Assembly: GCA_001567365.1 (NCBI GenBank)
Contig: JZEL01000014.1
Span: 1 to 43,247, forward strand
Reading direction: 5' to 3'
Length of the DNA: 43,247 nt
Origin: Parcubacteria bacterium OLB19
GTDB lineage: Bacteria > Patescibacteriota > Minisyncoccia > Phycocordibacterales > UBA918
Position numbers and translations under genes: made by a program. The notes under the pieces were generated by a model. That model was given only the letters and a program-made list of their open reading frames with translations, was not told the origin of the DNA and did not search any database. Numbering within the stretch: position 1 is the first letter of the stretch; the number at the start of each line of letters is the position of its first letter. Of this stretch, positions 14,150-40,064 are shown one piece after another.

Positions 14150-16461
<2,312 letters not shown>

Positions 16462-27895: not shown

Positions 27896-29380
27896 ATGTT
27901 AAAATCCCCACATATGAACCACATAACCAATATCTTCACCATCTTCTTCTTCATCCTCACTCTCTTCACCCTCACCCCTAACACCACCAACGCTCAATCC
28001 TTCACCACCAACGACTTCATTACTACTTGGGACACTGAAAACACTGGTACCTCAGCTAATAACCAAATCACCATCCCTGGTACTGGAGCTGGGTACAGCT
28101 ACTCTATCTATTGGGAATCACTCTCTAGCTCTACTGCTACTGGTACTATTGCTACTTCTACTTCCGCTTCTCAGACCATTACTTTCCCTGAACCCGGAGA
28201 ATACAAGGTAGCTATTAAAGGTACCTATCCTCGTTTATTCTTCTTTAATAATGGAGATAAGCTCAAGATTCTTACGGTAGAACAATGGGGGAGTAATTTA
28301 TGGACTAGTATGGCGGGAGCGTTCTATGGTTGTGCTAACTTGACAGTGCCAGCGACGGATGCACCAGATTTGAGTGGAGTGACTGGTACTACACCATCTA
28401 TTTCTAGTATGTTTAGGGGAGCTACTTCCTTTAATCAATCTATTAACCACTGGGTGATAACGAGTAATATACGCGATTTGGGTTCAATGTTTCGTGATGC
28501 AACTTCCTTTAATCAACCATTGGATAATTGGAATATATCACATATAACTAATTTTAGTTATATGTTTGATGGTGCAACGTCCTTTAATCAAGACATAACC
28601 GGCTGGGATACTTCTAATGTTACAACAATGAGAAGTATGTTTAGCAACGCTACCGCCTTCGATCAAGATCTCTCTACTTGGGATGTCTCTAGTGCTACTC
28701 CAAGTTCTACCCCTGTATTTATGAACGGCCTCGAAAACATGTTCTTCAACGCCGGCCTCTCCCAATCCAACCTCGACTCCACCCTCACCGCCTGGTCTGG
28801 TCAATCCCTAAACCAGAACGTACCCTTCCACCTCGGCCTTAAAACATACAGTCAAACCGGTCAATCCGCTCTCAACGTTCTCCGTAATACATACAACTGG
28901 ACTATCACTGAACAATACCAAGCCACCTATGAAGAAGGTAATGGCTACACCTTAAGTGGTACCACCACCCAAACCCACGTTAGTCACGGTAGCACCACCA
29001 CCCCAGTCGAAGTCATCCCCGATGACAACTGTGTCTTTGAAGGTTGGAGTGATGATATCACCACTAACCCTAGAACCGACACCCTAACCGACAACCTCAC
29101 TGTCACCCCCATTGTCACCTGTCACACCAATTCCAGTGGTAGCAGTGCTAAAACCAGACACCAGAAACTATTAGAATACGGCAATACCGCTGAGGCGGAA
29201 GCTGTTAAAGATAAATGCCTCAATCCCACCAATTCTAATACCTCATCTTTAGAAACCGCTATTACTACCATTACCACCCTTGCTACCAATCCTGTTATTA
29301 CCAATAACCCACAAACTAGACAACAACTAATCTCTATATTGCAACAGTTAGTACAGATATTGGAGGTGGTGAGGGGGTAA
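27896..29380 (+). CDS. BspA-like/DUF285 surface protein with InlB B-repeat-like domain
   Basis: Signal peptide; FITTWDT; VEQWG; repeated MF.GATSFNQ.I..W..S.VT; VFEGWSD...NPRTD. Confidence 0.88.
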   Translation: MLKSPHMNHITNIFTIFFFILTLFTLTPNTTNAQSFTTNDFITTWDTENTGTSANNQITIPGTGAGYSYSIYWESLSSSTATGTIATSTSASQTITFPEPGEYKVAIKGTYPRLFFFNNGDKLKILTVEQWGSNLWTSMAGAFYGCANLTVPATDAPDLSGVTGTTPSISSMFRGATSFNQSINHWVITSNIRDLGSMFRDATSFNQPLDNWNISHITNFSYMFDGATSFNQDITGWDTSNVTTMRSMFSNATAFDQDLSTWDVSSATPSSTPVFMNGLENMFFNAGLSQSNLDSTLTAWSGQSLNQNVPFHLGLKTYSQTGQSALNVLRNTYNWTITEQYQATYEEGNGYTLSGTTTQTHVSHGSTTTPVEVIPDDNCVFEGWSDDITTNPRTDTLTDNLTVTPIVTCHTNSSGSSAKTRHQKLLEYGNTAEAEAVKDKCLNPTNSNTSSLETAITTITTLATNPVITNNPQTRQQLISILQQLVQILEVVRG

Positions 29381-29520: not shown

Positions 29521-31629
29521 ATGACTGACAAAAAAGACAACAAAAAAAGTACCTATGACGCCTCATCTATTTCAGTTTTGGAAGGTTTGGAGCCGGTAAG
29601 AAAACGACCGGGAATGTATATTGGTACTACTGGTCCTGAAGGTCTTCATCATTTAATTTGGGAAGTATTCGATAACTCACGTGACGAAGCGATGGGTGGT
29701 TTTGCAAATCGTATTGAAGTGGCACTACTGCCGGGCGGATATGTTCGTGTGGTAGATAATGGTCGTGGTATTCCAGTTGATATTCATAAACAAACCGGTG
29801 TGTCAGCTCTTGAAACTATTCTTACTGTTCTTCATGCTGGAGGTAAGTTTGGTGGAGAAGGATCTGGATATAAAGTGTCTGGTGGTCTTCATGGTGTGGG
29901 TGTGTCGGTAATGAATGCCTTATCTTCTCATGTGATAGTAGAAGTACACCGTGATGGTGGGTATCATATGCAAGAGTATGCTATCGGTGTGCCTAAATAT
30001 AAAGTTAAAAAAATTGGTCCTTCTAAATTTAAAGGTACCATTGTAACTTTCCAAGCCGACGCTACTATTTTCCCTGAAACGGCTTATGATTTTAAGAAGA
30101 TTGTGAACCACTTGCGTCAACAAGCATATCTGGTAAAGGCGATGCAATTATCTGTAATTGACGCCAGATTAGTAGCAGGAGAGGAAGCTTCTGTTCATGC
30201 TTCTGAAGATAAGGGTGTGAAGAAATTTTTAGATGGCATTAAAGGCAAACAATATCTTTCCGATGAACATTTAGAAGTTCCTCATCAACATTTTTATTTC
30301 GAAGGTGGTTTGCGTTCATTGGTGGCCTTTAACAACCACTACCAAACTCCAGTCCATAAAAATATTTTCTACATTGAAAAGAATGATGTCGATAGTGCGG
30401 TTTTGTCGGTAGAAGTTGCTCTACAATACGTTGATGATATTTCTGCTCGTATCTCTGCTTTTGCTAACAATATTTACAACCCAGAACACGGAACTCATGT
30501 AACAGGTTTTAAGACTGCGCTAACTCGTACATTAAATAACTACGCTAAGAAAAACAATTTTTTCTCAGCTAAAGAAAAAGACCCTAGTTTTACTGGTGAT
30601 GATGTACTTGAAGGTATTACTGCGGTGGTTTCAGTAAAGATGCCGGAAATTCAGTTTGAAGGACAAACTAAAGCTAAGCTAGGATCAGTTGAAGCTCGTG
30701 GTGCGGTAGAATCAGTTTTTGGTGAGGCTTTTGCGACTTTCTTAGAGGAAAATCCCGATGATGCCAAGGCGATTATCAATAAAGTGATTATCGCAGTGAA
30801 GGCCCGTAAAGCTGCAAAAGCAGCGAAGGATAGTGTGCTTAGAAAAGGTGCTTTGGAAGGCATGTCGCTACCAGGTAAGTTGGCTGATTGTCAAAGCAAA
30901 AAAGCCGAAGATTCAGAGCTTTTCATTGTAGAGGGAGACTCGGCGGGAGGTTCAGCTAAGATGGGACGAGATAGAAAGACTCAAGCTATTTTAGCTCTCC
31001 GAGGCAAGATTCTTAATGTTGAAAGAGCTCGTATCGACAAAATGTTGGCTTCCGAACAGATTAAAAATGTGGTGATTGCACTTGGTACGGCTATCGGTGA
31101 TGTGTTTGATATTACACGTCTTCGTTATCACAAGATCATCATCGCTACTGACGCTGATGTTGACGGGGCACATATTCGAACGTTGCTTTTGACTTTGTTC
31201 TATCGCTATTTCCGGCCTTTAGTGGATGGTGGATTTATCTATATCGCTCAACCACCGCTCTATAAAATTCAACGAGGTAAAGAGACACATTATGCATTTG
31301 ATGATGCGGAAAAGTTCAGGATTTTAAATGATATGGGCGTGAGCACAGCTGAAGAGGAGACGGTAGAAGAAGAAAATAACGAGGAGGAAACAGAAACCGC
31401 TAAGAAATCAACTAAGGTAAGAATTCAGCGCTATAAAGGTTTGGGTGAAATGAATGCGGAAGAATTATGGGAAACCACTATGAATCCAGAAAATCGTATC
31501 TTAAAACAGGTAACGGTTGAAGATGGATTGATGGCAGATAAGGTGTTTGATATTTTGATGGGTACCGATGTACCAAGTCGAAAGTCCTTCATTCAGTCCA
31601 ATGCTAAGATGGCTAATCTCGATATTTAG
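29521..31629 (+). CDS. gyrB: DNA gyrase subunit B (type IIA topoisomerase B subunit)
   Basis: LEPVRKRPGMYIG; SGGLHGVG; VEGDSAGG; TDADVDGAHI; RYKGLGEMN. Confidence 0.96.
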   Translation: MTDKKDNKKSTYDASSISVLEGLEPVRKRPGMYIGTTGPEGLHHLIWEVFDNSRDEAMGGFANRIEVALLPGGYVRVVDNGRGIPVDIHKQTGVSALETILTVLHAGGKFGGEGSGYKVSGGLHGVGVSVMNALSSHVIVEVHRDGGYHMQEYAIGVPKYKVKKIGPSKFKGTIVTFQADATIFPETAYDFKKIVNHLRQQAYLVKAMQLSVIDARLVAGEEASVHASEDKGVKKFLDGIKGKQYLSDEHLEVPHQHFYFEGGLRSLVAFNNHYQTPVHKNIFYIEKNDVDSAVLSVEVALQYVDDISARISAFANNIYNPEHGTHVTGFKTALTRTLNNYAKKNNFFSAKEKDPSFTGDDVLEGITAVVSVKMPEIQFEGQTKAKLGSVEARGAVESVFGEAFATFLEENPDDAKAIINKVIIAVKARKAAKAAKDSVLRKGALEGMSLPGKLADCQSKKAEDSELFIVEGDSAGGSAKMGRDRKTQAILALRGKILNVERARIDKMLASEQIKNVVIALGTAIGDVFDITRLRYHKIIIATDADVDGAHIRTLLLTLFYRYFRPLVDGGFIYIAQPPLYKIQRGKETHYAFDDAEKFRILNDMGVSTAEEETVEEENNEEETETAKKSTKVRIQRYKGLGEMNAEELWETTMNPENRILKQVTVEDGLMADKVFDILMGTDVPSRKSFIQSNAKMANLDI

Positions 31630-31634
31630 TTTTT

Positions 31635-31698
31635 GTGGTGCAATAAATATAAAAAGCCGGCGCTTTGGCGCCGGGCTTTTTTATATTTATTGCACCAC
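31635..31698. terminator. long near-perfect palindrome between convergent gyrB and the CARDB gene
   Basis: GTGGTGCAATAAATATAAAAAGCCGGCGC-TTTG-GCGCCGGGCTTTTTTATATTTATTGCACCAC. Confidence 0.8.
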
Positions 31699-32695
31699 CA
31701 CTGTCTGTTCTAAAATATTATTGCCTTTATTTTTATCTCTGTCCGTTTTGATTTCCACTTTAATTTTTTTGTAAATCAGTGTCTTTGATAGCAGGGAACG
31801 AAAGAGTGATTGTCGCTCTTTCATTTGGTTTTAGTGGGGATTGTGTATTTGAGGTAAAGTCTACATCACCAGGTAGTTTGGCAGAAAAAGTCCAAGTCTC
31901 GGAGGTTCTGGTACCAATGTTGTGTACGACAAACTGCACTGCTCCTTCCTTATTTTTGGTTATAGAATTTGTTTTTACAAACACGCCAGCGTTGTTTTTG
32001 GTACCAATCAGCAAGTTACTCAAGAGTAGGTCAGTGAAGCCGTTTGGGTTAGAAACTGGTATTTCATAGGTGTAAATGATTTCCGGAGTAGATGGTTTTG
32101 GTATGGTTGGTTTTGTACTGGTGGCAATGGGTTTCTTGATTTCTTCAGGTATATTCTCCTTTTCTTCATCAATCTTTACGATGTTACTGTTAGTAATAGA
32201 GACGGTTTTGCTTACATTGGTGTCTGGGGTTGTTTCATTTTTTCTAATATAGGCAATATTGAATTCTGCTTCAACAAAAGGAGATTTAGTAGAATCTATT
32301 TTCAACTCTATGTGATCAATTAGACCCAGATCGTGCGGTTGATTACAAGCTAGACTGGTAAAGTCTTTGTCTTTGGTTTTGAGATCAATAGCTACTCCGT
32401 CAGCACAAGTATAGCTAAAGGTAAAAGAACCAGTTTTTACCTCTTTGTTCCACCAGACCACCAACGTTTCACCGCTTTTTATAGTAGAGCTGTCGGTCAT
32501 AATCTTTAAGTCCTTATTAGCGTTATAGTTATAAACAGTATCAGCTAGAGAAGCTAATGAACTGATGGCGCTAGGGAAGAGTTTTACCACCTGCGTTGCT
32601 GACCAAACTAAAATCAATAATACAACGATCAAACTAATAAAACCGAATATCTTGTTTTGTTTAGGGTTGCTGTTTTGTCCATTTTCCGTATTCAT
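31687..32695 (-). CDS. membrane-anchored protein with C-terminal CARDB-like Ig domain; frameshift in A7 tract at 31764-31770
   Basis: N-terminal TM; DL...VQFVVHNIGTRTSETW...LKPNE; removing one A restores ...QKIKVEIKTDRDKNKGNNILEQTVVVQ*. Confidence 0.75.
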
Positions 32696-32791
32696 AATAA
32701 CGAAACGCTACTACTATTAAAAACCTTTGTCAATAGAACATTTTTAAATTGACAATGACTATATATTATGTTATTATGTAAAGGTGATTAT

Positions 32792-33454
32792 ATGAATAAT
32801 TTCGAGTCGACAAAAATCTCAAGAGAAGTGAGGCTAAAGTTTGCTTTGGTCTCAGTTTTTGTGTTTTTGGTTAGTTATTCGCTTTTGGCTTATTTTGATT
32901 TTTTACCTGAACCAGTCGAAAATGAGGTTGAAAATACTGTTTCTGAAATTAAAGAAGCTATGGAAATAGTTTCTACAGAGCCTGTTGTGGCTACTTCAAC
33001 AGAAGAGGAAGTTGGTCAATTGCCAGAAAAAATCACCTTCAATTCTCTCAATCGTTCAGTTGCAATCCTTAATCCAACTTCAAAATCTATTCAAGATCTC
33101 GATAATGCCTTGCTTAGTGGGGTAGTTAGACATCCTGATTCTGCTATTTTGGGTCAATCTGGCACTGTTTTTATTTTGGGTCATTCTAGTTATCTACCAA
33201 AGGTAATAAATCCAAATTTCCAAGCCTTTAATGGTATTCAAAATCTAAAATGGGGAGATACAATCCGTCTCGAGTCTGAATCAAAAGTTTATGTATATAG
33301 AGTAGATAAGGTTTATAAAGCGCGTGCTACCGATACTACTGTGCCAATTGCTGGGGAAGAAAAACGACTGGTTTTAGCGACATGTAACAGCTTTGGTTCG
33401 GTTGATGATCGGTATATTGTCGAAGCGGATTTAATTGAGGTCAGAGCTTTGTAA
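32792..33454 (+). CDS. sortase
   Basis: N-terminal TM; catalytic triad pattern ILGHSS, LVLATC, DRYIV; L.WGD.I; probable start ATG 32792. Confidence 0.9.
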   Translation: MNNFESTKISREVRLKFALVSVFVFLVSYSLLAYFDFLPEPVENEVENTVSEIKEAMEIVSTEPVVATSTEEEVGQLPEKITFNSLNRSVAILNPTSKSIQDLDNALLSGVVRHPDSAILGQSGTVFILGHSSYLPKVINPNFQAFNGIQNLKWGDTIRLESESKVYVYRVDKVYKARATDTTVPIAGEEKRLVLATCNSFGSVDDRYIVEADLIEVRAL

Positions 33455-33461
33455 GACTAGG

Positions 33462-33684
33462 TTGACAAAACCATAAAAATCAATTATAGTAGGAGTAATT
33501 CGCTTGTTCTAACTTTTTTTTTTATTTTTCTAACTTTTTCCGTTAATTATAACTAATTTTTGGATATTTAGAATGTGATTATTGTTGTTCTTTTTTGGTG
33601 CGGTTTGTGATTTTGATTACTCTTGCGTGCAAAGAGTGTAGGTAAGAGTATAGAATTTATAAATCTCTTTATTATTTTTAAAAT
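33462..33684 (+). promoter_or_regulatory. near-consensus promoter and ~190-nt U-rich leader of the surface protein gene
   Basis: TTGACA(33462)-17-TATAGT(33485). Confidence 0.6.
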
Positions 33685-35964
33685 ATGAAATTATTTTCAT
33701 CTCTAAAGCAGGTTCTACCGTTTCTATTGGTAGCCGTACTTACTTTTGGAGTTTTAAACTTCGGATCTTATGATCCTCATAACGAATTAGGAGCGCTTAC
33801 ACCAAGTAGTGCTATAGGTTTTACTATTCCTACTTTTGATGGACCAACTTCAGGTTCATCTAGTTCTGGTTCGTCATCTAGTAGCTCTGGTTCATCTTCA
33901 GGATCAAGTTCCTCAAGTAGCTCGTCATCTAGTAGCAGTTCAGGATCAAGTAGTTCGGCTATGGGTAGTTGTAAGGTAACAGCTAGCTTGACTGAAGTGT
34001 CATATGGTTCGGATATAACTATCTCTTGGACCACTTCTGGTTTTTCTACTATTACTTTGAACGGTGAGGCTGTTAGTGGTTCTTCTGGTTCAAAAACTTT
34101 CCATAACATTAAGGAAAATACTGATTATACATTGGTAGCAAAAAGCGCTGATGGTAATTCTAGTTGTACTTCAACTGTTAGGGTTAAGTGTTTACCACCA
34201 CCTCCACCGATTCCATCAACTTGTACTCTAACACCAACTACTAAGACTATTCTTTCTGGTGAATCTGTAGATCTAACTTGGACTACTTCTAACGCTGCTA
34301 GCGCTACTTTGACTGATTTTGGTACTGTAGCTCTCAGTGGAACAAAGAATACTGGGGCGTTGACTACCAATAAAACCTACACTCTTAATGTTGTCGGTAC
34401 CAACGGTCAAACCGTATCTTGTAAATCAGATATCACCGTGACTGTTACTCCACCTCCTCCAGTTATTACTTGTCAAAATAATGTAAACTTTACTATTAGT
34501 CCTAATAGTATTAAGGAAGGTGATTCAGCTACTCTAACTTGGAGTACAACTGGTATTACTGGTGTTAGTTTTGATAATGGTATAACTGCAACTGGACTTA
34601 GTGGTTCAGTGTCTGTTTCACCAAATGTATCAACTACATATACTCTAACCGCTACTAGTGGTACTTCGACTATTTCTTGTCCAGCATCATTGACGGTAGA
34701 ACGTAATAACGGTGGTGGTGGCGGTGGTGGATCATCTACTCCAACTTGTGAACTAACTGTTTCTAAGAACAAGATTACTAAAGGTACAGAGGTAAAACTA
34801 AAGTGGGAAAGTAGTCGTGCTACCAGTGTGAAATTGATTGATAGTAAGGGCAAGACTTTGGTTACTACTGAAAATCTACTAGGTGATGCCAAGACCGACT
34901 TGTACGATGGTTCAATTACTGTAAAACCAACTAGTGACACAACTTATACATTGATTGTAGAAAGAGGTTCACGTGATCGTGAATGTAAGGTAAAGGTTGA
35001 CGTTGAAGATAATGTGGTAGTGTCACAAATTCGTGATCAACAACCGTTAGTTTCTGGTATTGCCTTAACTGACGTTCCTTATACTGGTTTTGAAGCTGGT
35101 CCAATTCTAACTTTCTTGTTCTACTTTATTCTAATGTTGTGGGCTATGTATGTGGCTTACCTAATAGTGATTAGACGAAACTTGTTAGGTGGTGGATATC
35201 AACTAGCTACACCAACTGAGATAAAAGCGATTCCAGAAACTACTGGTACACAAAATGTTGTTGAAGCAACAATAGTAACTCCAGAGGTAAATAATGTTAA
35301 AGCTTCTGCTCCAGTAAATCTGCCAACTGGCATACCAGTTATTGGTTATGCAAACTATGGTACGATCGCTGGTGATCATATTGATGATGAGATGATTACA
35401 CAAATCGAAAATTATGCTCATACCCAACACGTTCTATTGTCTTCTGATGCTATTCGTCACTTCATAAATAGTACTAATAGTGGTGAAGAAAGGACTGAGG
35501 CACTTGGTCAGGTTATTAAAACTGCAAAATCTAAGTTTCCAACTGAGGACGGATGGGTGGTAGTAAATGAAACTAGGATGAAAGATTTGTGTGCAGATTT
35601 GACACCTAAGCAGTCTGAAGTAATTGTGGCCGAAAACAAAATCCCAACTGTATTACCATCAGGTTCTGGGTCATTGGCGGAAGCGATTGTTACCGGTAAC
35701 GTGGTGGCGGCTTATGAAATGATTGGTAATCGTCCAATGTTTGCTCTAGCTGATGCTGCTTCTGATCTTGATTCAGTAGTGCGTAAGCGTAAGGGTGGTA
35801 ATGAGATTATATCTGAAATGTTGCTACAAGAGACTGCAAAATTGTCTGATGAGCAATTATTGAAAATGGTAGAAGCTTTGACTGGTGCACTCGATGGTAC
35901 TTATACCGATGAGGCGTCAGCTGTAAAGATGGCTATTATGAAAGCAGTAAAAATAGTAGCGTAA
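33685..35964 (+). CDS. large surface protein: poly-Ser linker, four Cys-bounded Ig-like repeats, internal VPYTG plus TM, cytoplasmic helical domains
   Basis: Repeats C.....I..G....L.W...TY.L......C; VPYTG at aa 464 (35074-35088); TM followed by RR; ~260 aa after the TM. Confidence 0.85.
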   Translation: MKLFSSLKQVLPFLLVAVLTFGVLNFGSYDPHNELGALTPSSAIGFTIPTFDGPTSGSSSSGSSSSSSGSSSGSSSSSSSSSSSSSGSSSSAMGSCKVTASLTEVSYGSDITISWTTSGFSTITLNGEAVSGSSGSKTFHNIKENTDYTLVAKSADGNSSCTSTVRVKCLPPPPPIPSTCTLTPTTKTILSGESVDLTWTTSNAASATLTDFGTVALSGTKNTGALTTNKTYTLNVVGTNGQTVSCKSDITVTVTPPPPVITCQNNVNFTISPNSIKEGDSATLTWSTTGITGVSFDNGITATGLSGSVSVSPNVSTTYTLTATSGTSTISCPASLTVERNNGGGGGGGSSTPTCELTVSKNKITKGTEVKLKWESSRATSVKLIDSKGKTLVTTENLLGDAKTDLYDGSITVKPTSDTTYTLIVERGSRDRECKVKVDVEDNVVVSQIRDQQPLVSGIALTDVPYTGFEAGPILTFLFYFILMLWAMYVAYLIVIRRNLLGGGYQLATPTEIKAIPETTGTQNVVEATIVTPEVNNVKASAPVNLPTGIPVIGYANYGTIAGDHIDDEMITQIENYAHTQHVLLSSDAIRHFINSTNSGEERTEALGQVIKTAKSKFPTEDGWVVVNETRMKDLCADLTPKQSEVIVAENKIPTVLPSGSGSLAEAIVTGNVVAAYEMIGNRPMFALADAASDLDSVVRKRKGGNEIISEMLLQETAKLSDEQLLKMVEALTGALDGTYTDEASAVKMAIMKAVKIVA

Positions 35965-35980
35965 TCACTACTAAAAGTTA

Positions 35981-36053
35981 AAAAAGCGCCGGCACGAAGT
36001 GCCGGCGCTTTTTAATACCAAGCACCGCGCCTACGGCGCGGGGCTTGGTATTA
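35981..36053. terminator. tandem GC-rich hairpins (cGAAg loop; cGTAg loop on the minus strand)
   Basis: AAAAAGCGCCGGCAC-GAA-GTGCCGGCGCTTTTT and TAATACCAAGCACCGCGCC-TAC-GGCGCGGGGCTTGGTATTA. Confidence 0.8.
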
Positions 36054-36473
36054 CTGCCTCTCAATTTTCTCAGTTTTGGTTTTTTTCTCCAGACACCCAA
36101 TACATTTGCAATTATCTTTACCGATGATTTCGTTGAAATAAAATTTTCCGTAGTTGTAAGTTAATTCTTCGCCAGTTTTGATGTTTCTTTTGGTATAAAT
36201 ATACACATGCTCTTCTTTATCATCTAGTTCTGGATAACAATTTGGTTTACAAGAATGATTGATATAGCGAGCCAGATTTTCTCTGCCTTTGCCATCGATT
36301 GTCCACTTATCATTCAGTTCAAATAAATATTTACCACCTCGTTTGTTGGCCTCCTCTTCAGTAATTTTCTCACCAGTGTATTCAATAATCATTTCTCCTT
36401 TTTTAAAATCACGAAGGGCAAACAATCCCAAACCACTCTGACTTTTTTTAGTTTGTACATTTTCATTTTTCAT
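36051..36473 (-). CDS. SET-domain protein (putative lysine methyltransferase)
   Basis: GLGLFA; IIEYTGE; ARYINHSCKPN; GEELTYNY; post-SET CKCIGC. Confidence 0.93.
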   Translation of the reverse strand: MKNENVQTKKSQSGLGLFALRDFKKGEMIIEYTGEKITEEEANKRGGKYLFELNDKWTIDGKGRENLARYINHSCKPNCYPELDDKEEHVYIYTKRNIKTGEELTYNYGKFYFNEIIGKDNCKCIGCLEKKTKTEKIERQ

Positions 36474-36555: not shown

Positions 36556-38913
36556 ATGAATCAAGTTCTTGAAAAATATATCAGAGCCACTAATTATCTC
36601 TCTGCTACACAAATTTATTTGCGTGATAATTTCTTATTAAGAGAACCCTTACAACGTAAACATATAAAACCCAGACTCCTTGGTCATTGGGGTACTTGTC
36701 CGGGTGTAAATTTCACTTACGCACATTTGAATAGAGCAATCATTGCTCACGATCTAGATATGCTTTTTGTGCTTGGTCCCGGACATGGTTTTCCGGCTAT
36801 TCAGGCAAACTTATTTTTAGAGGGTACTTTATCAAAGTATTATAAAGATATCGGTCGCAATAGTGAAGGTATTGCCAAAATGGTAAAACAATTTAGTTGG
36901 CCATATGGTTTCCCTAGTCATAGTAATCCGGAGGCACCAGGAGTAATTTTAGAGGGTGGGGAATTAGGTTATTCACTTTCCACTTCTTACGGAGCGGTTT
37001 TAGACAATCCTAATTTGATTGTTGCTTGTTTGATTGGTGACGGTGAAGCGGAAACTGGCCCAATTGCGACAGCTTGGCATTTAAATAAATTACTTGATCC
37101 TGCTCATAATGGTGCTGTGCTCCCGATACTACATTTGAACGGTTACAAAATATCTGGACCAACTTTCTTTGGTCGAATGAGTGATGATGAACTCTCGGCT
37201 CTGTTTACTGGTTATGGTTATAAACCATATTTTGTGGATTCTTATACTGAGGACGATGTGCATGCAAGAATGCAGACTGTTCTTGATCAGGCTATTAACG
37301 ATATTCATTTTACGCAACACTGTGCTAAAGAAGGAAGTTTGCGTGACAATCCACGTTGGCCAATGCTTATTCTTCGTACTCCAAAAGGTTGGCATAGTAT
37401 TGCCCAAATTGGTGATAAAAAGATTGAGGATAATCATTATTCACATCAAGTTATCGCTGATGGTGCGTTGCAGAATGATGAGGAATTTAGATTGTTGGAA
37501 GAATGGCTACGATCCTATCGTTTCGATGAGCTTTTTGACGGTGAAAGATTTGATGCCGATATTGAATCATTAATACCAAGAGAGGGTAGGTGTATGGGAG
37601 ATAATAAGCACGCTTTCGGCGGACAAGCTGTTTGCCAACCGCTTAATTTGCCTAATATTTATGAATACGATAGAGAAAATACTTGTAATTTAGATGATCC
37701 AATTTGTGGTGAGGTAAGTAGTATGGAAAAGATCGGTGCTTATCTTCGTGATACAATGCAACTAAACGAAGGTGAGAGGAATTTACGTTTATTTTCACCA
37801 GATGAAACTTACTCCAATAAGTTACAAGCAGTTTTTGATTATACTAATCGCACTTTTGTATGGCCACATAAGGAGTGGGATAAGGATCTGGCGCATGATG
37901 GCCGAGTAATGGAAATGTTATCTGAACATAGTCTTCAGGGTCTTTTACAAGGTTATGTTTTAACTGGTCGACATGGAGTGTTTGCTTCCTACGAAGCATT
38001 TATTCAGATTGTAGCCAGTATGGTCGATCAGTATGCTAAATTCTTAAAAATCGCTCGCAATGTGTCATGGCGTGGAGTAATCCCATCGTTAAATTACATC
38101 TTAACATCAACCGGTTGGCGACAAGAACACAATGGCTTTTCTCACCAAAATCCAGGTTTTATTGATGATGTATTGCAACGCCAAGGTTGTTTTACCAATG
38201 TCTATTTCCCAGCTGACGCCAACATTGCTTTAGTAACATTTAAGAGAATGCTCGAATCTACGCGTGAGATTAACGTTATGGTTTGTGAAAAAAGACCACT
38301 ACCAGTTTGGCGAACAATAGCTGAAGCCGAAAATGATGTTAGGGATGGCATCTCAATTTGGGATTTTGCTAGTGATAAAGATCCTCATGTAGTCTTAGCT
38401 GCGGCTGGGGACTATCCTACCCAAGAGGTTTTGGCAGCTATCAGTATTGTGCGTCAAAACCTACCAAAATTGCGAATGCGCTTTGTGAGCATTACTTCGC
38501 TGTCGGCTCTTGGTATCGGTAATTCCACTTGTCGAGTCCTGCCATATAGTTTTGAAGACTATTTTACTGAAGACAAACCTATTATTGTGAATTTTCATGG
38601 CTATCCGCAAACTATGAAGCAAGTTTTGTTCGACTATGGTTGTGATGCGGAGAGGGTTCGTGTACATGGATATGAGGAAACCGGATCAACTACCACTCCT
38701 TTTGATATGATGGTAAGAAATCGAGTCGACCGTTTTCGTTTAGCGATGGAGGTCTATAACGTAGCCTTTAAAGCTGGAGTTGCCAGTGAAAAGAAAATAA
38801 GAAGTTTGATAGATGAAATACAAACTAAATTGTCAGATCATCGTGCTTATGTAATCGAAAATGGTGATGATCCTATAGATATAACAAATTGGATATGGGA
38901 GTCACGCTCATAG
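36556..38913 (+). CDS. xfp: phosphoketolase (Xfp)
   Basis: LGHWGTCPG; EGGELGYSL; GDGEAETG; LHLNGYKI; WRQEHNGFSHQNPG. Confidence 0.97.
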   Translation: MNQVLEKYIRATNYLSATQIYLRDNFLLREPLQRKHIKPRLLGHWGTCPGVNFTYAHLNRAIIAHDLDMLFVLGPGHGFPAIQANLFLEGTLSKYYKDIGRNSEGIAKMVKQFSWPYGFPSHSNPEAPGVILEGGELGYSLSTSYGAVLDNPNLIVACLIGDGEAETGPIATAWHLNKLLDPAHNGAVLPILHLNGYKISGPTFFGRMSDDELSALFTGYGYKPYFVDSYTEDDVHARMQTVLDQAINDIHFTQHCAKEGSLRDNPRWPMLILRTPKGWHSIAQIGDKKIEDNHYSHQVIADGALQNDEEFRLLEEWLRSYRFDELFDGERFDADIESLIPREGRCMGDNKHAFGGQAVCQPLNLPNIYEYDRENTCNLDDPICGEVSSMEKIGAYLRDTMQLNEGERNLRLFSPDETYSNKLQAVFDYTNRTFVWPHKEWDKDLAHDGRVMEMLSEHSLQGLLQGYVLTGRHGVFASYEAFIQIVASMVDQYAKFLKIARNVSWRGVIPSLNYILTSTGWRQEHNGFSHQNPGFIDDVLQRQGCFTNVYFPADANIALVTFKRMLESTREINVMVCEKRPLPVWRTIAEAENDVRDGISIWDFASDKDPHVVLAAAGDYPTQEVLAAISIVRQNLPKLRMRFVSITSLSALGIGNSTCRVLPYSFEDYFTEDKPIIVNFHGYPQTMKQVLFDYGCDAERVRVHGYEETGSTTTPFDMMVRNRVDRFRLAMEVYNVAFKAGVASEKKIRSLIDEIQTKLSDHRAYVIENGDDPIDITNWIWESRS

Positions 38914-40064
38914 TTAATCCTGGTAGTTCATCGAAAAAATTTGCCTTGTACAAAGATGATGTGCGAGTGCTTGATGCTTATGTTGAAAGTGGTGGTGATG
39001 GCTATAATGTTTGCACTTTACTAAAAGGTGTACAACAAGGGTGTACAACAATCAACCGAAGACGTTTTCATGAGAGTCTTAATGATTTTTTGCAAAAGGC
39101 TAAAGAATTAAATTTAATTAACGATTTATTTGATATTGAAAAAGTGGCGGTGAGAGTAGTAGCTCCGGGAACTTTTTTTCAAGAACACAAAGTGCTCGAT
39201 GTTGGATACATGCAGAAATTAAAATCCGTGGAAGCAATTGTTCCTCTGCATATACCACATCTTCTAAAAGAAATTGAGATAATTAACAAGGAATTGCCAC
39301 ATATTAAATTGTTGGCTGTATCTGATAGCGCTTTTCATAGCACTATACCTGATTTTATTAGGGAATATTCCTTATCCGAAAGCGAGACTAAATCTCATGA
39401 TTTGTATCGTTTTGGTTACCACGGTCTATCAGTGGCGTCGGTGATAAGAAGAATTCATGCGGTGGTGGGAATGGACGCGGAAAGGGTGGTGGTTTGTCAT
39501 ATTGGTAGTGGCGTAAGTGTAACTGCTATCAAAAATGGTAAAAGTTTAGATAATTCTATGGGGTATGCGCCCGGTAATGGTCTTATTATGGGTAGTAGAG
39601 CTGGGGATCTTGATACAGGGGCACTTTTAACTTTGATGCAAATTAAAAATATGAAAGCTATTGATGCTCAAAATTTTGTTCAAACCAGTGGTGGTCTTAA
39701 AGGTATGACCGGTGATAATGACTTGCGCATTTTACTGGAGAGAAAGGTTAAAGGTGAAGTTTTAGCTACTAAGGCGATTGCAAGTTTTGTTTATCAGATT
39801 CAAAAAACTATCGGTGCCTATACCGCGGTTTTGGGTGGTTTGGATTTACTGGTTTTTACCGCCACAGCTGGCGAGCGTAGTTCAATTCTGCGTGACCTGA
39901 TAACCAAAAATTTGTCTGGTATCGGAATTGTTATTGATCAAGATAAAAACGAAGCCTGTATTAGTAAGAATGGCGTTATTAGTCAAATGGGAATTAATAC
40001 AAAAGTAGCAGTGATAAAAACTGACGAAACTGACGAAATTTTCCGAATAACAAAAACGTTATAA
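38895..40064 (+). CDS. ackA: acetate kinase
   Basis: IVNPGSSSKK; DSAFH; RFGYHGLS; CHIGSGVS; GSRAGDLD; TDE; overlaps the xfp stop. Confidence 0.92.
   Translation: MGVTLIVNPGSSSKKFALYKDDVRVLDAYVESGGDGYNVCTLLKGVQQGCTTINRRRFHESLNDFLQKAKELNLINDLFDIEKVAVRVVAPGTFFQEHKVLDVGYMQKLKSVEAIVPLHIPHLLKEIEIINKELPHIKLLAVSDSAFHSTIPDFIREYSLSESETKSHDLYRFGYHGLSVASVIRRIHAVVGMDAERVVVCHIGSGVSVTAIKNGKSLDNSMGYAPGNGLIMGSRAGDLDTGALLTLMQIKNMKAIDAQNFVQTSGGLKGMTGDNDLRILLERKVKGEVLATKAIASFVYQIQKTIGAYTAVLGGLDLLVFTATAGERSSILRDLITKNLSGIGIVIDQDKNEACISKNGVISQMGINTKVAVIKTDETDEIFRITKTL

What the first reader, a model, noticed from the sequence alone, without database searches (positions are those of the whole stretch)
31687..35964. 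Sortase locus whose adjacent substrate has an internal sorting signal and a large cytoplasmic tail
Seen: a sortase (H/C/R triad pattern) lies directly upstream of a 759-aa protein with an N-terminal hydrophobic signal, poly-Ser linker and four Cys-bounded Ig-like repeats. These are followed by VPYTG, a TM helix and RR at about aa 464-498, then ~260 more residues. A divergent CARDB-domain membrane protein completes the locus. Known: canonical LPxTG substrates end a few residues after the TM helix. Inference: sortase cleavage would both anchor or transfer the ectodomain (to own or host peptidoglycan, or to a pilus) and leave a membrane-tethered cytoplasmic fragment. That would be a sortase-gated transmembrane signalling or assembly device in a probable epibiont.
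Basis: partly seen in the sequence, partly recalled or inferred. Interest (0 to 1): 0.85.

Follow-up and report, generated by a model that had tools for sequence, protein, structure and literature searches.

The report
Sortase substrate with a conserved cytoplasmic tail
A tiny candidate-phyla bacterium keeps a sortase next to a surface protein whose sortase cutting site sits mid-protein, so cutting should leave a conserved inner domain anchored in the membrane, an arrangement not described for sortases.

Summary
A sortase gene (32768-33454) lies upstream of a 759-aa protein (33685-35964). That protein has a signal peptide, a Ser-rich linker and four Cys-bounded repeats. These are followed by VPYTG (aa 464-468), one TM helix, RR and a 261-aa tail. 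A weak CARDB-like membrane protein (31760-32695, minus strand) lies divergently upstream.

The motif behaves as a real sorting signal. It is VPYTG in 120 of 120 homologues. In 103 more distant ones P, T and G never change, while positions 1 and 3 vary (IPYTG, LPYTG, LPQTG, IPETG and others). The sortase lies upstream in 68 of 80 related loci; only one of the 12 exceptions is a real one.

Relatives also carry the parts separately. Some have a canonical substrate ending about 40 aa after the motif, plus a stand-alone TM+tail gene that stays beside the sortase. In others a conserved A7-A9 run splits the gene into a short substrate ORF and a -1-frame tail ORF that is under purifying selection.

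Best reading: this is a dedicated sortase substrate, and cleavage leaves a working membrane-tethered cytoplasmic domain. I rate it a new variant of a known kind.

The parts
31657..31674 (.). Terminator-like GC hairpin (reads on both strands) between the gyrB stop and the CARDB-like gene stop. It forms the left border of the module.
   Evidence: 7 GC pairs, listed on both strands. gyrB identified by Pfam.
31760..32695 (-). 311-aa N-terminally anchored surface protein (TM aa 16-34) with two beta-rich parts. The C-terminal part is weakly CARDB-like. It is the conserved third gene of the module.
   Evidence: PF07705 E 0.022, below cut-off; conserved second domain. Present in 61 of 80 related loci and 7 of 10 distant loci.
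32749..32777 (+). Promoter-like site (11 of 12 matches) in the divergent intergenic region. If used, the sortase probably starts at the second Met.
   Evidence: This is a consensus match only; the total count of sites is not above the shuffles.
32768..33454 (+). Sortase, 228 aa. It has an N-terminal membrane anchor (aa 25-43) and a catalytic domain (aa 92-222) with H139, C206 and R215. It is the only sortase found in this genome.
33462..33490 (+). Promoter-like site (11 of 12 matches) between the sortase stop and the substrate gene.
   Evidence: Consensus match only.
33685..35964 (+). 759-aa substrate gene with an internal sorting signal (whole ORF, including the stop).
33685..33771 (+). N-terminal hydrophobic signal region (aa 1-29).
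   Evidence: Kyte-Doolittle windows 3-29; K2 and K8 lie before it.
33850..33957 (+). Ser/Gly-rich linker (aa 56-91).
   Evidence: printed N-terminus.
33970..35010 (+). Four Cys-bounded repeats of about 75-88 aa (aa 96-442), forming the variable ectodomain.
   Evidence: alignment; pairwise identity 18-31%. (Cys positions).
35074..35088 (+). VPYTG sorting motif (aa 464-468). The predicted sortase cut lies between T467 and G468.
   Evidence: 120 of 120; P, T and G invariant in 103 of 103. The position of the cut is inferred from how LPXTG sortases work.
35101..35178 (+). Transmembrane helix (aa 473-496) followed by RR (497-498). The helix itself is unusually conserved (F, Y, L, W and Y invariant or nearly so).
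35179..35961 (+). Conserved acidic cytoplasmic tail (aa 499-759). It has a variable linker, part A (about aa 560-645, AAA+-lid-like as a lead only) and part B (about aa 650-759). No Pfam family matches.
35981..36013 (-). Strong terminator-like hairpin (15 pairs) between the substrate gene and the convergent SET-domain gene. It forms the right border of the module.

Best explanation
This is a conserved three-gene surface module of one order of Paceibacteria (Parcubacteria). It holds a membrane-anchored sortase, its dedicated substrate, and an N-terminally anchored CARDB-like surface protein.

**Proposed mechanism.** The 759-aa protein is exported by its signal peptide and halted in the membrane by the single TM helix plus RR. 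The neighbouring sortase recognises VPYTG just outside the membrane and cuts it between T467 and G468. The Ig-repeat ectodomain is passed to an amine acceptor, most likely the peptidoglycan precursor. G468-A759 stays behind as an N-out/C-in membrane protein carrying a 261-aa acidic cytoplasmic domain.

That remnant is not waste. It is a working unit that acts with the sortase, perhaps by positioning surface-protein assembly, scaffolding it, or reporting on it.

**Shown:**
- the architecture;
- conservation of the motif with sortase-type variability;
- the synteny;
- the natural separate, split and tail-less forms.

**Inferred:**
- the cut;
- the acceptor;
- the survival and role of the remnant.
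For: 1. **Real sortase.** PF04203 at 65.3 bits. H139, C206 and R215 are invariant in 63 of 63 orthologues. It is the only sortase found in the 91%-complete genome.
2. **Only candidate substrate.** The only ORF of any length in the genome with an xPx[TSA]G motif followed by a hydrophobic helix is this one.
3. **Motif conservation.** VPYTG occurs in 120 of 120 homologues, always 288-392 aa from the C-terminus. Among 103 representatives with motif plus tail the counts are VPYTG 80, IPYTG 9, LPYTG 6, VPHTG 2, TPYTG 2, and LPQTG, IPHTG, LPTTG and IPETG 1 each. P, T and G are fixed while positions 1 and 3 vary, as in LPXTG.
4. **Synteny.** The sortase lies upstream on the same strand in 68 of 80 loci. 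Of the 12 without it, 9 have at most 118 nt upstream or run off the contig, 1 is a fragment, 1 has only 1306 nt upstream, and 1 (L059) is a true exception. In other families of the order, 8 of 10 loci keep sortase plus [VI]PYTG-TM-tail.
5. **Canonical forms exist.** Three genomes whose sortase neighbour is a TM+tail protein without ectodomain or motif carry, elsewhere, an ectodomain protein ending 41 aa after VPYTG or LPYTG, with TM and RR. One of them (G429, 98% complete) has a single detected sortase, and it sits beside the TM+tail gene.
6. **Split relatives.** ORF1 stops right after the TM and three Lys.
7. **Tail conservation.** The tail is 36-60% identical to the window's across 67 orthologues. 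The profile finds 508 cluster representatives. In the 11 pairs compared between split species it is under purifying selection wherever a ratio could be computed (dN/dS 0.08-0.33 in 8 pairs; no ratio in 3).
8. **Topology.** There are only two hydrophobic segments, RR lies after the second, and the ectodomain has 9 Cys against 1 in the tail.
9. **Peptidoglycan machinery.** Three PBP transpeptidase domains and MraY are present.
Against: - No experiment or proteomic datum shows cleavage.
- The structure and complex predictors were unavailable.
- The sortase falls far below every NCBIfam class cut-off (best 47.1 bits against 140), so its specificity cannot be read from a class.
- Conservation extends well beyond the pentapeptide, into FEAGP and the helix. 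That could equally mean a structural juxtamembrane element.
- The sortase stays conserved next to TM+tail proteins that lack the motif, so the gene linkage by itself does not prove that the motif is the target.
- Eight genomes of the same genus match only motif plus TM with this query (E about 1e-15 to 4e-16). The three of them inspected carry short-tailed substrates with no tail ORF. The tail therefore seems dispensable in some lineages.
- The tail has no recognisable family. Profile comparisons with clamp-loader delta, RarA and DnaX were not significant.
Confidence: 0.6

Rival explanations
1. The sortase does cut at VPYTG, but the tail works only before the cut. It would act as an oversized retention or targeting domain, for example steering the precursor to a site of wall synthesis or holding it for the sortase. 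The remnant is then degraded and has no later role.
For: - Canonical sorting signals need only a retention element after the helix, by established knowledge; the abstract of PMC4617865 appears in the listing.
- Tail-less lineages exist.
- Short and long forms can apparently be made from one gene in split lineages.
Against: - Stand-alone TM+tail genes with no ectodomain to target persist beside the sortase, with an intact conserved tail.
- Tail conservation equals that of the sortase: 36-60% against 41-62% identity to the window's proteins.
Confidence: 0.2
2. The protein is an uncut type I membrane protein. [VI]PYTGFEAGP is a structural juxtamembrane element that happens to look like a sorting motif. 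The neighbouring sortase acts on something else, or on the CARDB-like protein.
For: - Conservation runs beyond the pentapeptide into FEAGP and the helix.
- The sortase remains next to motif-less TM+tail proteins.
- No cleavage data exist.
Against: - P, T and G are invariant, with LPXTG-like variation at positions 1 and 3, including LPQTG, LPTTG and IPETG.
- Relatives end canonically 37-41 aa after the motif.
- No other candidate substrate was found in this genome.
Confidence: 0.12
3. The sortase polymerises the ectodomains into a fibre, or links them to the CARDB-like protein, as pilus sortases do. The tail-bearing molecule would serve as the membrane base of the structure.
For: - Stalk-like repeats bounded by Cys pairs.
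- A dedicated sortase with one substrate.
- A conserved third surface protein.
- Short and long forms in some lineages.
Against: - No conserved Lys-containing pilin-type motif was looked for or seen.
- Ectodomain architecture varies widely between species (lengths 429-1306 aa).
- The sortase scores lower against class C than against class D.
Confidence: 0.06
4. The long ORF is an artefact: an assembly chimera, or a decaying fusion of two genes.
For: Some relatives carry the two halves in different frames.
Against: - 67 of 80 species loci have the same uninterrupted fusion.
- The window's gene has no A or T run of 6 or more.
- The fusion recurs in 21 other families of the order.
Confidence: 0.02

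Closest known systems
Canonical LPXTG cell-wall sorting signal and housekeeping sortase (SrtA type) of Gram-positive bacteria
   Same: N-terminal signal peptide; an xPxTG pentapeptide with invariant P, T and G; a hydrophobic helix; basic residues; a membrane-anchored Cys transpeptidase with a His/Cys/Arg triad.
   Different: - The signal is internal: 261 conserved residues follow the basic residues, instead of the protein ending there.
- Position 1 is mostly V or I.
- The helix and the five residues after G are themselves conserved.
- The sortase is encoded next to a single substrate.
Dedicated sortase-substrate pairs. Examples are class D sortases, which are the best NCBIfam and PDB sequence matches here, and the class GN 'marine' sortase with its single target. 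The biology of these pairs is recalled, not taken from a call.
   Same: One sortase gene adjacent to its one substrate. The closest sequence matches are class D models and the chains 2LN7 and 4D70.
   Different: All class models score far below their cut-offs (47.1 against 140, 42.4 against 165), so it is not a member of any curated class. The known pairs have C-terminal signals without a cytoplasmic domain.
Sensing of the C-terminal peptide left by sortase A in Streptococcus gordonii (two-component system SGO_1180), as summarised in a passage of PMC11326707
   Same: The membrane remnant left after sortase cleavage carries information for the cell rather than being mere waste.
   Different: There the remnant is a short peptide sensed by a separate kinase. 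Here the remnant would itself carry a 261-aa conserved domain. No kinase or regulator is encoded in the module.
Ectodomain shedding followed by signalling from the membrane stub (anti-sigma factor and Notch-type logic; recalled)
   Same: An extracellular cut separates an ectodomain from a TM-anchored cytoplasmic domain.
   Different: The cutting enzyme would be a transpeptidase that also attaches the ectodomain to the wall. No second intramembrane protease and no DNA-binding part is evident.
Two length variants made from one gene by slippage on an A run. Examples are Thermus thermophilus dnaX with A9 (passage of PMC1088944) and Citrobacter rodentium tssM with A11 (abstract of PMC4256274).
   Same: In split relatives an A7-A9 run lies at the junction and the downstream ORF is in the -1 frame. 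Both the run and the frameshift are kept between species whose synonymous sites are saturated.
   Different: This is seen only in relatives, not in the window's gene. No RNA data are available, so slippage is inferred.

Membership tests
Sortase (Pfam PF04203) | Domain match above the curated cut-off | tested here: met
   65.3 bits against 26.6, E 5.6e-18, residues 92-222.
Sortase (Pfam PF04203) | Catalytic His, Cys (TxC-type motif) and Arg | tested here: met
   H139, C206 and R215 are invariant in 63 of 63 orthologues.
Sortase (Pfam PF04203) | N-terminal membrane anchor placing the domain outside the cell | tested here: met
   Hydrophobic window at aa 25-43, preceded by K/R residues. This is a hydropathy estimate only.
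Class D sortase (NCBIfam NF033746 / NF058671) | Score above the curated class cut-off | tested here: not met
   42.4 bits against 165 and 47.1 against 140. Classes E, C and GN score lower still.
LPXTG-type cell-wall sorting signal | Pentapeptide xPxTG | tested here: met
   VPYTG at aa 464-468. P, T and G are invariant in 120 of 120 and 103 of 103 homologues.
LPXTG-type cell-wall sorting signal | Hydrophobic helix, then basic residues, directly after the motif | tested here: met
   aa 473-496, then R497 and R498.
LPXTG-type cell-wall sorting signal | Signal lies at the extreme C-terminus | tested here: not met
   261 residues follow in the window's protein. The feature is met in relatives: 37-41 aa from motif to stop.
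LPXTG-type cell-wall sorting signal | Match to a curated model of the anchor domain | tested here: not met
   No NCBIfam or Pfam family at E up to 0.1 for the 759-aa protein.
LPXTG-type cell-wall sorting signal | Cleavage between T and G by the sortase, and linkage to the wall | not testable with these tools
CARDB (Pfam PF07705) for the 311-aa neighbour | Domain match above the curated cut-off | tested here: not met
   15.4 bits against 22.7, E 0.022. The C-terminal domain is conserved among 73 orthologues.
AAA+ lid / clamp-loader-like helical domain (tail part A) | Significant sequence-profile or fold match | tested here: inconclusive
   Atlas feature score 0.84-0.85 and TM 0.58-0.67 over about 80-90 residues, all below the tool's bars. 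hhalign against delta gave P 0.016, against RarA 0.18, against DnaX 0.18. Pfam gave none.
Programmed slippage site (relatives only) | Homopolymer run at the frame junction, kept across species, with the downstream ORF under selection | tested here: met
   10 of 11 split loci have the -1 frame with A7-A9. dN/dS is 0.08-0.15 for species pairs sharing a site. 9 of the 15 A9/T9 runs in 954 kb lie in this linker.
Programmed slippage site (relatives only) | Heterogeneous mRNA, or two protein products | not testable with these tools
   No RNA holder was listed, and only contigs were available.

The most novel reading that the evidence does not exclude
Sortase cleavage is a maturation step that makes two working proteins from one gene. 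One is a wall-bound Ig-repeat ectodomain. The other is a membrane-tethered cytoplasmic domain, possibly AAA+-lid-like, that acts with the sortase to position or report surface assembly. Evolution has also solved the same need with a separate TM+tail gene. In some lineages the ratio of short to long product is set by programmed slippage on a conserved A9 run.
Probability: 0.3. Interest if true: 0.85.

Novelty: new variant of a known kind. Interest (0 to 1): 0.7.

Why it matters
Sortase substrates are defined by a signal at the very C-terminus, and the piece left in the membrane is usually ignored. Here a whole order of ultra-small bacteria puts a domain as conserved as the enzyme itself behind that signal.

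Related genomes supply the controls that an experimenter would build: substrate and tail as one gene, as two genes, as two frames joined by an A9 run, or with no tail at all.

If the cut is confirmed, several things follow:
- It would show a transpeptidase acting as the processing enzyme of a bipartite protein.
- It would give a first handle on how these organisms build and monitor their surface.
- It would add a defined motif ([VIL]PxTG followed by FEAGP) for annotating their surface proteins.
- The A9 junction would be a clean new case of recoding in an uncultivated lineage.

Tried and rejected
**Structure of the tail and of the sortase-motif pair.** Nothing was folded, and no fold search was run.

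**Tail homology.**
- Pfam on the whole protein gave nothing. Pfam on 68 tail orthologues gave only scattered hits with E of 0.00026 or worse, none shared by more than 6 members.
- The PDB profile search gave nothing meaningful.
- The Atlas gave a consistent but sub-threshold lead to AAA+ lid and clamp-loader or RarA C-terminal domains.
- I tested that lead with hhalign against alignments of the lineage's own proteins: delta (12 sequences), RarA (10) and DnaX (24). Probabilities were 2.9%, 0.3% and 0.3%, while the RarA-DnaX control gave 99.7%. The lead stays a lead.

**RarA anticorrelation.** In a sample of 18 genomes of the genus, RarA appeared only where the tail is absent or separate. In all 165 family genomes RarA occurs in 42, including many with fused tails. 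I rejected the pattern as phylogenetic.

**Co-occurrence within the family.** It is uninformative, because both genes are nearly universal: tail in 151 of 165 genomes, sortase in 158 of 165. The genome search also misses cases. G394 scored no sortase, yet locus L005 on the same contig has one by tblastn.

**Extra DNA between sortase and substrate.** In about 20 loci there is a gap of 0.8-3.8 kb. It was inspected in one locus (L047) and gave no clear conserved gene.

**Expression.** No RNA holder was listed for the split locus L084, so slippage could not be tested. The runs laid were contigs only. X1-X3 come from one study and may be the source of the record, so they are not independent support.

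**Literature.**
- 'VPYTG' found 2 unrelated papers.
- 'sortase' with 'candidate phyla radiation' found 21 papers, and with 'Patescibacteria' 17. In the three I opened, the passages mention sortases only in general terms. The rest I saw only as a listing.
- 'internal LPXTG' occurred in none of the 15 papers listed.
- I found no description of this architecture with these searches.

Full report
**What is in the window.** Between gyrB (29521-31629; Pfam) and a convergent SET-domain gene (36051-36473) lie three genes:
- a 311-aa protein on the minus strand (31760-32695);
- a 228-aa protein (32768-33454);
- a 759-aa protein (33685-35964).

Terminator-like hairpins bracket the block at 31657-31674 and 35981-36013. 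Two 11-of-12 promoter-like sites sit in the two intergenic gaps (consensus matches only).

The 228-aa protein is a sortase. It matches PF04203 at 65.3 bits against a cut-off of 26.6 and has an N-terminal hydrophobic anchor at aa 25-43. H139, C206 and R215 are invariant in 63 of 63 orthologues. It belongs to no curated class: the best NCBIfam models are class D at 47.1 and 42.4 bits against cut-offs of 140 and 165. The nearest solved chains are 2LN7, 4D70 and 2KW8, at E 5e-9 to 6e-4.

The 311-aa protein has an N-terminal anchor and a conserved C-terminal domain that is only weakly CARDB-like (15.4 bits, below the cut-off).

**The 759-aa protein.**
- a hydrophobic N-terminus;
- a Ser/Gly run at aa 56-91;
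- four repeats of about 75-88 aa, each bounded by two Cys, 18-31% identical to each other;
- VPYTG at aa 464-468;
- the only other hydrophobic segment at aa 469-497, then R497 and R498;
- 261 more residues that are acidic and hold one Cys, against nine in the ectodomain.

By the positive-inside rule and the Cys distribution, the tail is cytoplasmic (inference). No Pfam or NCBIfam family matches the protein.

**Is the motif a sorting signal?** A search with aa 440-759 found 414 proteins, and the best 120 are 52-87% identical over this part. All 120 have VPYTG, 288-392 residues from their C-terminus.

A profile of the tail alone, run against 1.84 billion representatives, found 508 proteins at E up to 1e-3. 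Of the 137 new ones returned, 103 have motif plus tail. The pentapeptide counts are VPYTG 80, IPYTG 9, LPYTG 6, VPHTG 2, TPYTG 2, and LPQTG, IPHTG, LPTTG and IPETG 1 each.

So P, T and G never change, position 1 stays aliphatic (rarely T), and position 3 drifts. This is the pattern of LPXTG signals. Conservation also extends into the next five residues (FEAGP) and the helix. That is unusual and is discussed below.

In the window's own genome (905 kb, 91% complete) there is one sortase and one tail protein. A six-frame scan for xPx[TSA]G plus a helix found no other credible candidate.

**Linkage to the sortase.** In one-genome-per-species contigs, 134 species encode a relative, and 80 loci were kept. 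The sortase lies upstream on the same strand in 68 of them, the CARDB-like gene in 61, and gyrB in 49.

The 12 loci without a sortase break down as follows:
- 9 have at most 118 nt upstream, or the ORF runs off the contig;
- 1 is a terminal fragment;
- 1 has only 1306 nt upstream;
- 1 (L059) has 4 kb of other genes, and is the only real exception.

The module is nearly universal in the window's GTDB family: the tail is found in 151 of 165 genomes and a sortase in 158 of 165. It is rare in an even sample of the class (3 of 301). Across the order it is present in 34 of 251 genomes, in 21 families besides the window's. In those distant relatives, 7 of 8 loci show [VI]PYTG, a helix and 289-471 further residues. 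Of 10 larger loci, 8 have the sortase upstream on the same strand and 7 have a CARDB-like gene. The arrangement is therefore old and maintained.

**Natural variants that dissect the protein.** The 80 loci classify as follows:

| Class | Loci |
|---|---|
| Uninterrupted fusion with the whole tail | 67 |
| Cut by a contig end | 1 |
| Only the first half of the tail | 1 |
| Split | 7 |
| Tail ORF without the motif (one is a fragment) | 4 |

Three kinds of variant are informative.

- **Separate genes.** In L066, L067 and L069 the gene beside the sortase encodes only a short hydrophobic N-terminus, a helix homologous to the substrate's helix, and the tail. It has no ectodomain and no motif. The three genomes of this type that I searched each carry, elsewhere, an ectodomain protein 58-59% identical to the window's last repeat and helix. 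That protein ends 41 aa after VPYTG (LPYTG in one), with helix and RR, which is a textbook C-terminal signal. In G429 (98% complete) the only sortase detected sits beside the TM+tail gene, not beside that substrate. The TM+tail unit thus exists as a protein in its own right, and it is the partner that stays with the sortase.
- **Tail-less lineages.** Eight genomes of the genus match only motif plus helix with this query. The three I inspected end 73-74 aa after the motif, with a short conserved cytoplasmic peptide and no tail ORF.
- **Split genes.** See the next section.

**The A-run junction (relatives only).** In 11 split loci, ORF1 carries ectodomain, motif and helix, and ORF2 carries the tail.
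- In 10 of the 11, ORF2 is in the -1 frame, overlaps ORF1, and the overlap holds a run of A7 to A9 (A9 in seven). The runs sit at three different places in the linker.
- In three loci ORF1 stops five residues after the helix's last residue, giving a canonical signal.
- In 954 kb of fetched loci there are 15 A9 or T9 runs. Nine lie in this short linker: seven at out-of-frame junctions and two in frame in fused genes.
- Species that share a junction have saturated synonymous sites, yet they keep the run, the frameshift and an intact tail ORF. For L083/L084, dN/dS is 0.08 with dS about 2.0. For L098/L099 it is 0.15, and for L098/L100 it is 0.14. These are rough NG86 values.
- Per-run contigs of three runs reproduce the L084 junction without any difference. 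They come from one study and may be the source.

A9 runs are known sites of transcriptional slippage that yield two protein lengths: T. thermophilus dnaX (passage of PMC1088944) and tssM (abstract of PMC4256274). I infer that these lineages make both a short canonical substrate and a long tail-bearing form. Phase variation or internal initiation are not excluded. The window's own gene has no A or T run of 6 or more and is the plain fused type.

**How it most likely works.** The genome has peptidoglycan machinery: three PBP transpeptidase domains and MraY. I propose the following steps.
1. The precursor is exported and held by its helix.
2. The neighbouring sortase cuts between T467 and G468.
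3. The ectodomain is joined to the wall precursor.
4. G468-A759 remains as a membrane protein with a cytoplasmic domain that works with the sortase.

The strong conservation of both the substrate's helix and the sortase's anchor fits recognition within the membrane (inference).

What the tail does is unknown. It has two conserved parts. The first resembles AAA+ lid domains in the Atlas's feature and model searches, but below the tool's bars, and profile comparisons did not confirm it. The closest functional precedent is the sensing of the short peptide left by sortase A in S. gordonii (passage of PMC11326707).

**Rivals.**
- The tail might act only before cleavage.
- The motif might be structural and never cut.
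- The sortase might polymerise the ectodomains.

Each is weighed in the rival explanations. None is excluded without biochemistry. An assembly artefact is excluded by 67 independent fused loci.

**Novelty.** CPR papers that I could search mention sortases only in general terms. For example, PMC6744442 reports a sortase family in more than half of CPR genomes (passage). Searches for the motif and for 'internal LPXTG' found nothing relevant. I rate this a new variant of a known kind. The enzyme and the signal are classical. The conserved cytoplasmic domain behind the signal, its stand-alone form beside the sortase, and the A9 junction are not.

**Limits.**
- There are no structure predictions and no RNA data.
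- Supplementary files of papers were closed.
- The related genomes are kin, so counts across them are not independent events.

Noticed in passing
Relatives: L083, L084, L085, L087, L088, L089, L093, L098, L099, L100 (junction between the substrate ORF and the tail ORF): The tail ORF lies in the -1 frame behind a conserved A7-A9 run at three alternative linker positions. Nine of the 15 A9/T9 runs in 954 kb of loci lie in this linker. The tail ORF is under purifying selection. This is a candidate for programmed slippage giving short and long products.
   Followed up: partly
Relatives: L090, L091, L092 (genomes G391, G454, G363): These are tail-less lineages. The substrate ends 73-74 aa after the motif with a short conserved Lys-rich cytoplasmic peptide. 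No tail domain was found with this query, and the sortase is still adjacent.
   Followed up: partly
window 35590-35600 (aa 636 of the 759-aa protein) and alignment A2: At least 90% of homologues have two Cys three residues apart (CxxC) in the cytoplasmic tail. The window's protein keeps only the first, C636.
   Followed up: no
window about 35305-35345 (aa 541-553): The cytoplasmic linker holds a nearly invariant N-L-P-T-G-like stretch followed by V/I-G-Y. It resembles a sorting motif but lacks the x position and lies inside the cell. Its role is unknown.
   Followed up: no
own genome, contig C27, ORF starting near 16281 (+), 130 aa: A small ORF ends with NPDSG, a hydrophobic helix and a Lys-rich tail. 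It may be another C-terminal sorting-type signal, or it may be chance.
   Followed up: no
relatives of the family: Many related genomes hold a second, better-scoring sortase type (about 80-88 bits, 200-270 aa) at another locus. The window's genome shows only the module's sortase.
   Followed up: no
window 36051-36473 (-), 36556-38913 (+), 38889-40064 (+), 27896-29380 (+): The neighbours are a 140-aa SET-domain protein, a phosphoketolase (XFP domains) whose end overlaps the start of an acetate kinase by 25 nt, and a DUF285 surface protein with a signal peptide.
   Followed up: partly
L066 7086-8240, L069 7042-8244, G429 contig C4: In the lineages with a stand-alone TM+tail gene, a RarA/MgsA-type AAA+ gene lies directly downstream of it. 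Across the family RarA does not track tail type, so this is probably coincidental.
   Followed up: yes
G394 / L005: the genome search reported no sortase candidate in G394, although tblastn finds one at L005:2512-3150 on the same contig. Absences reported by that tool's first look need checking.
   Followed up: yes
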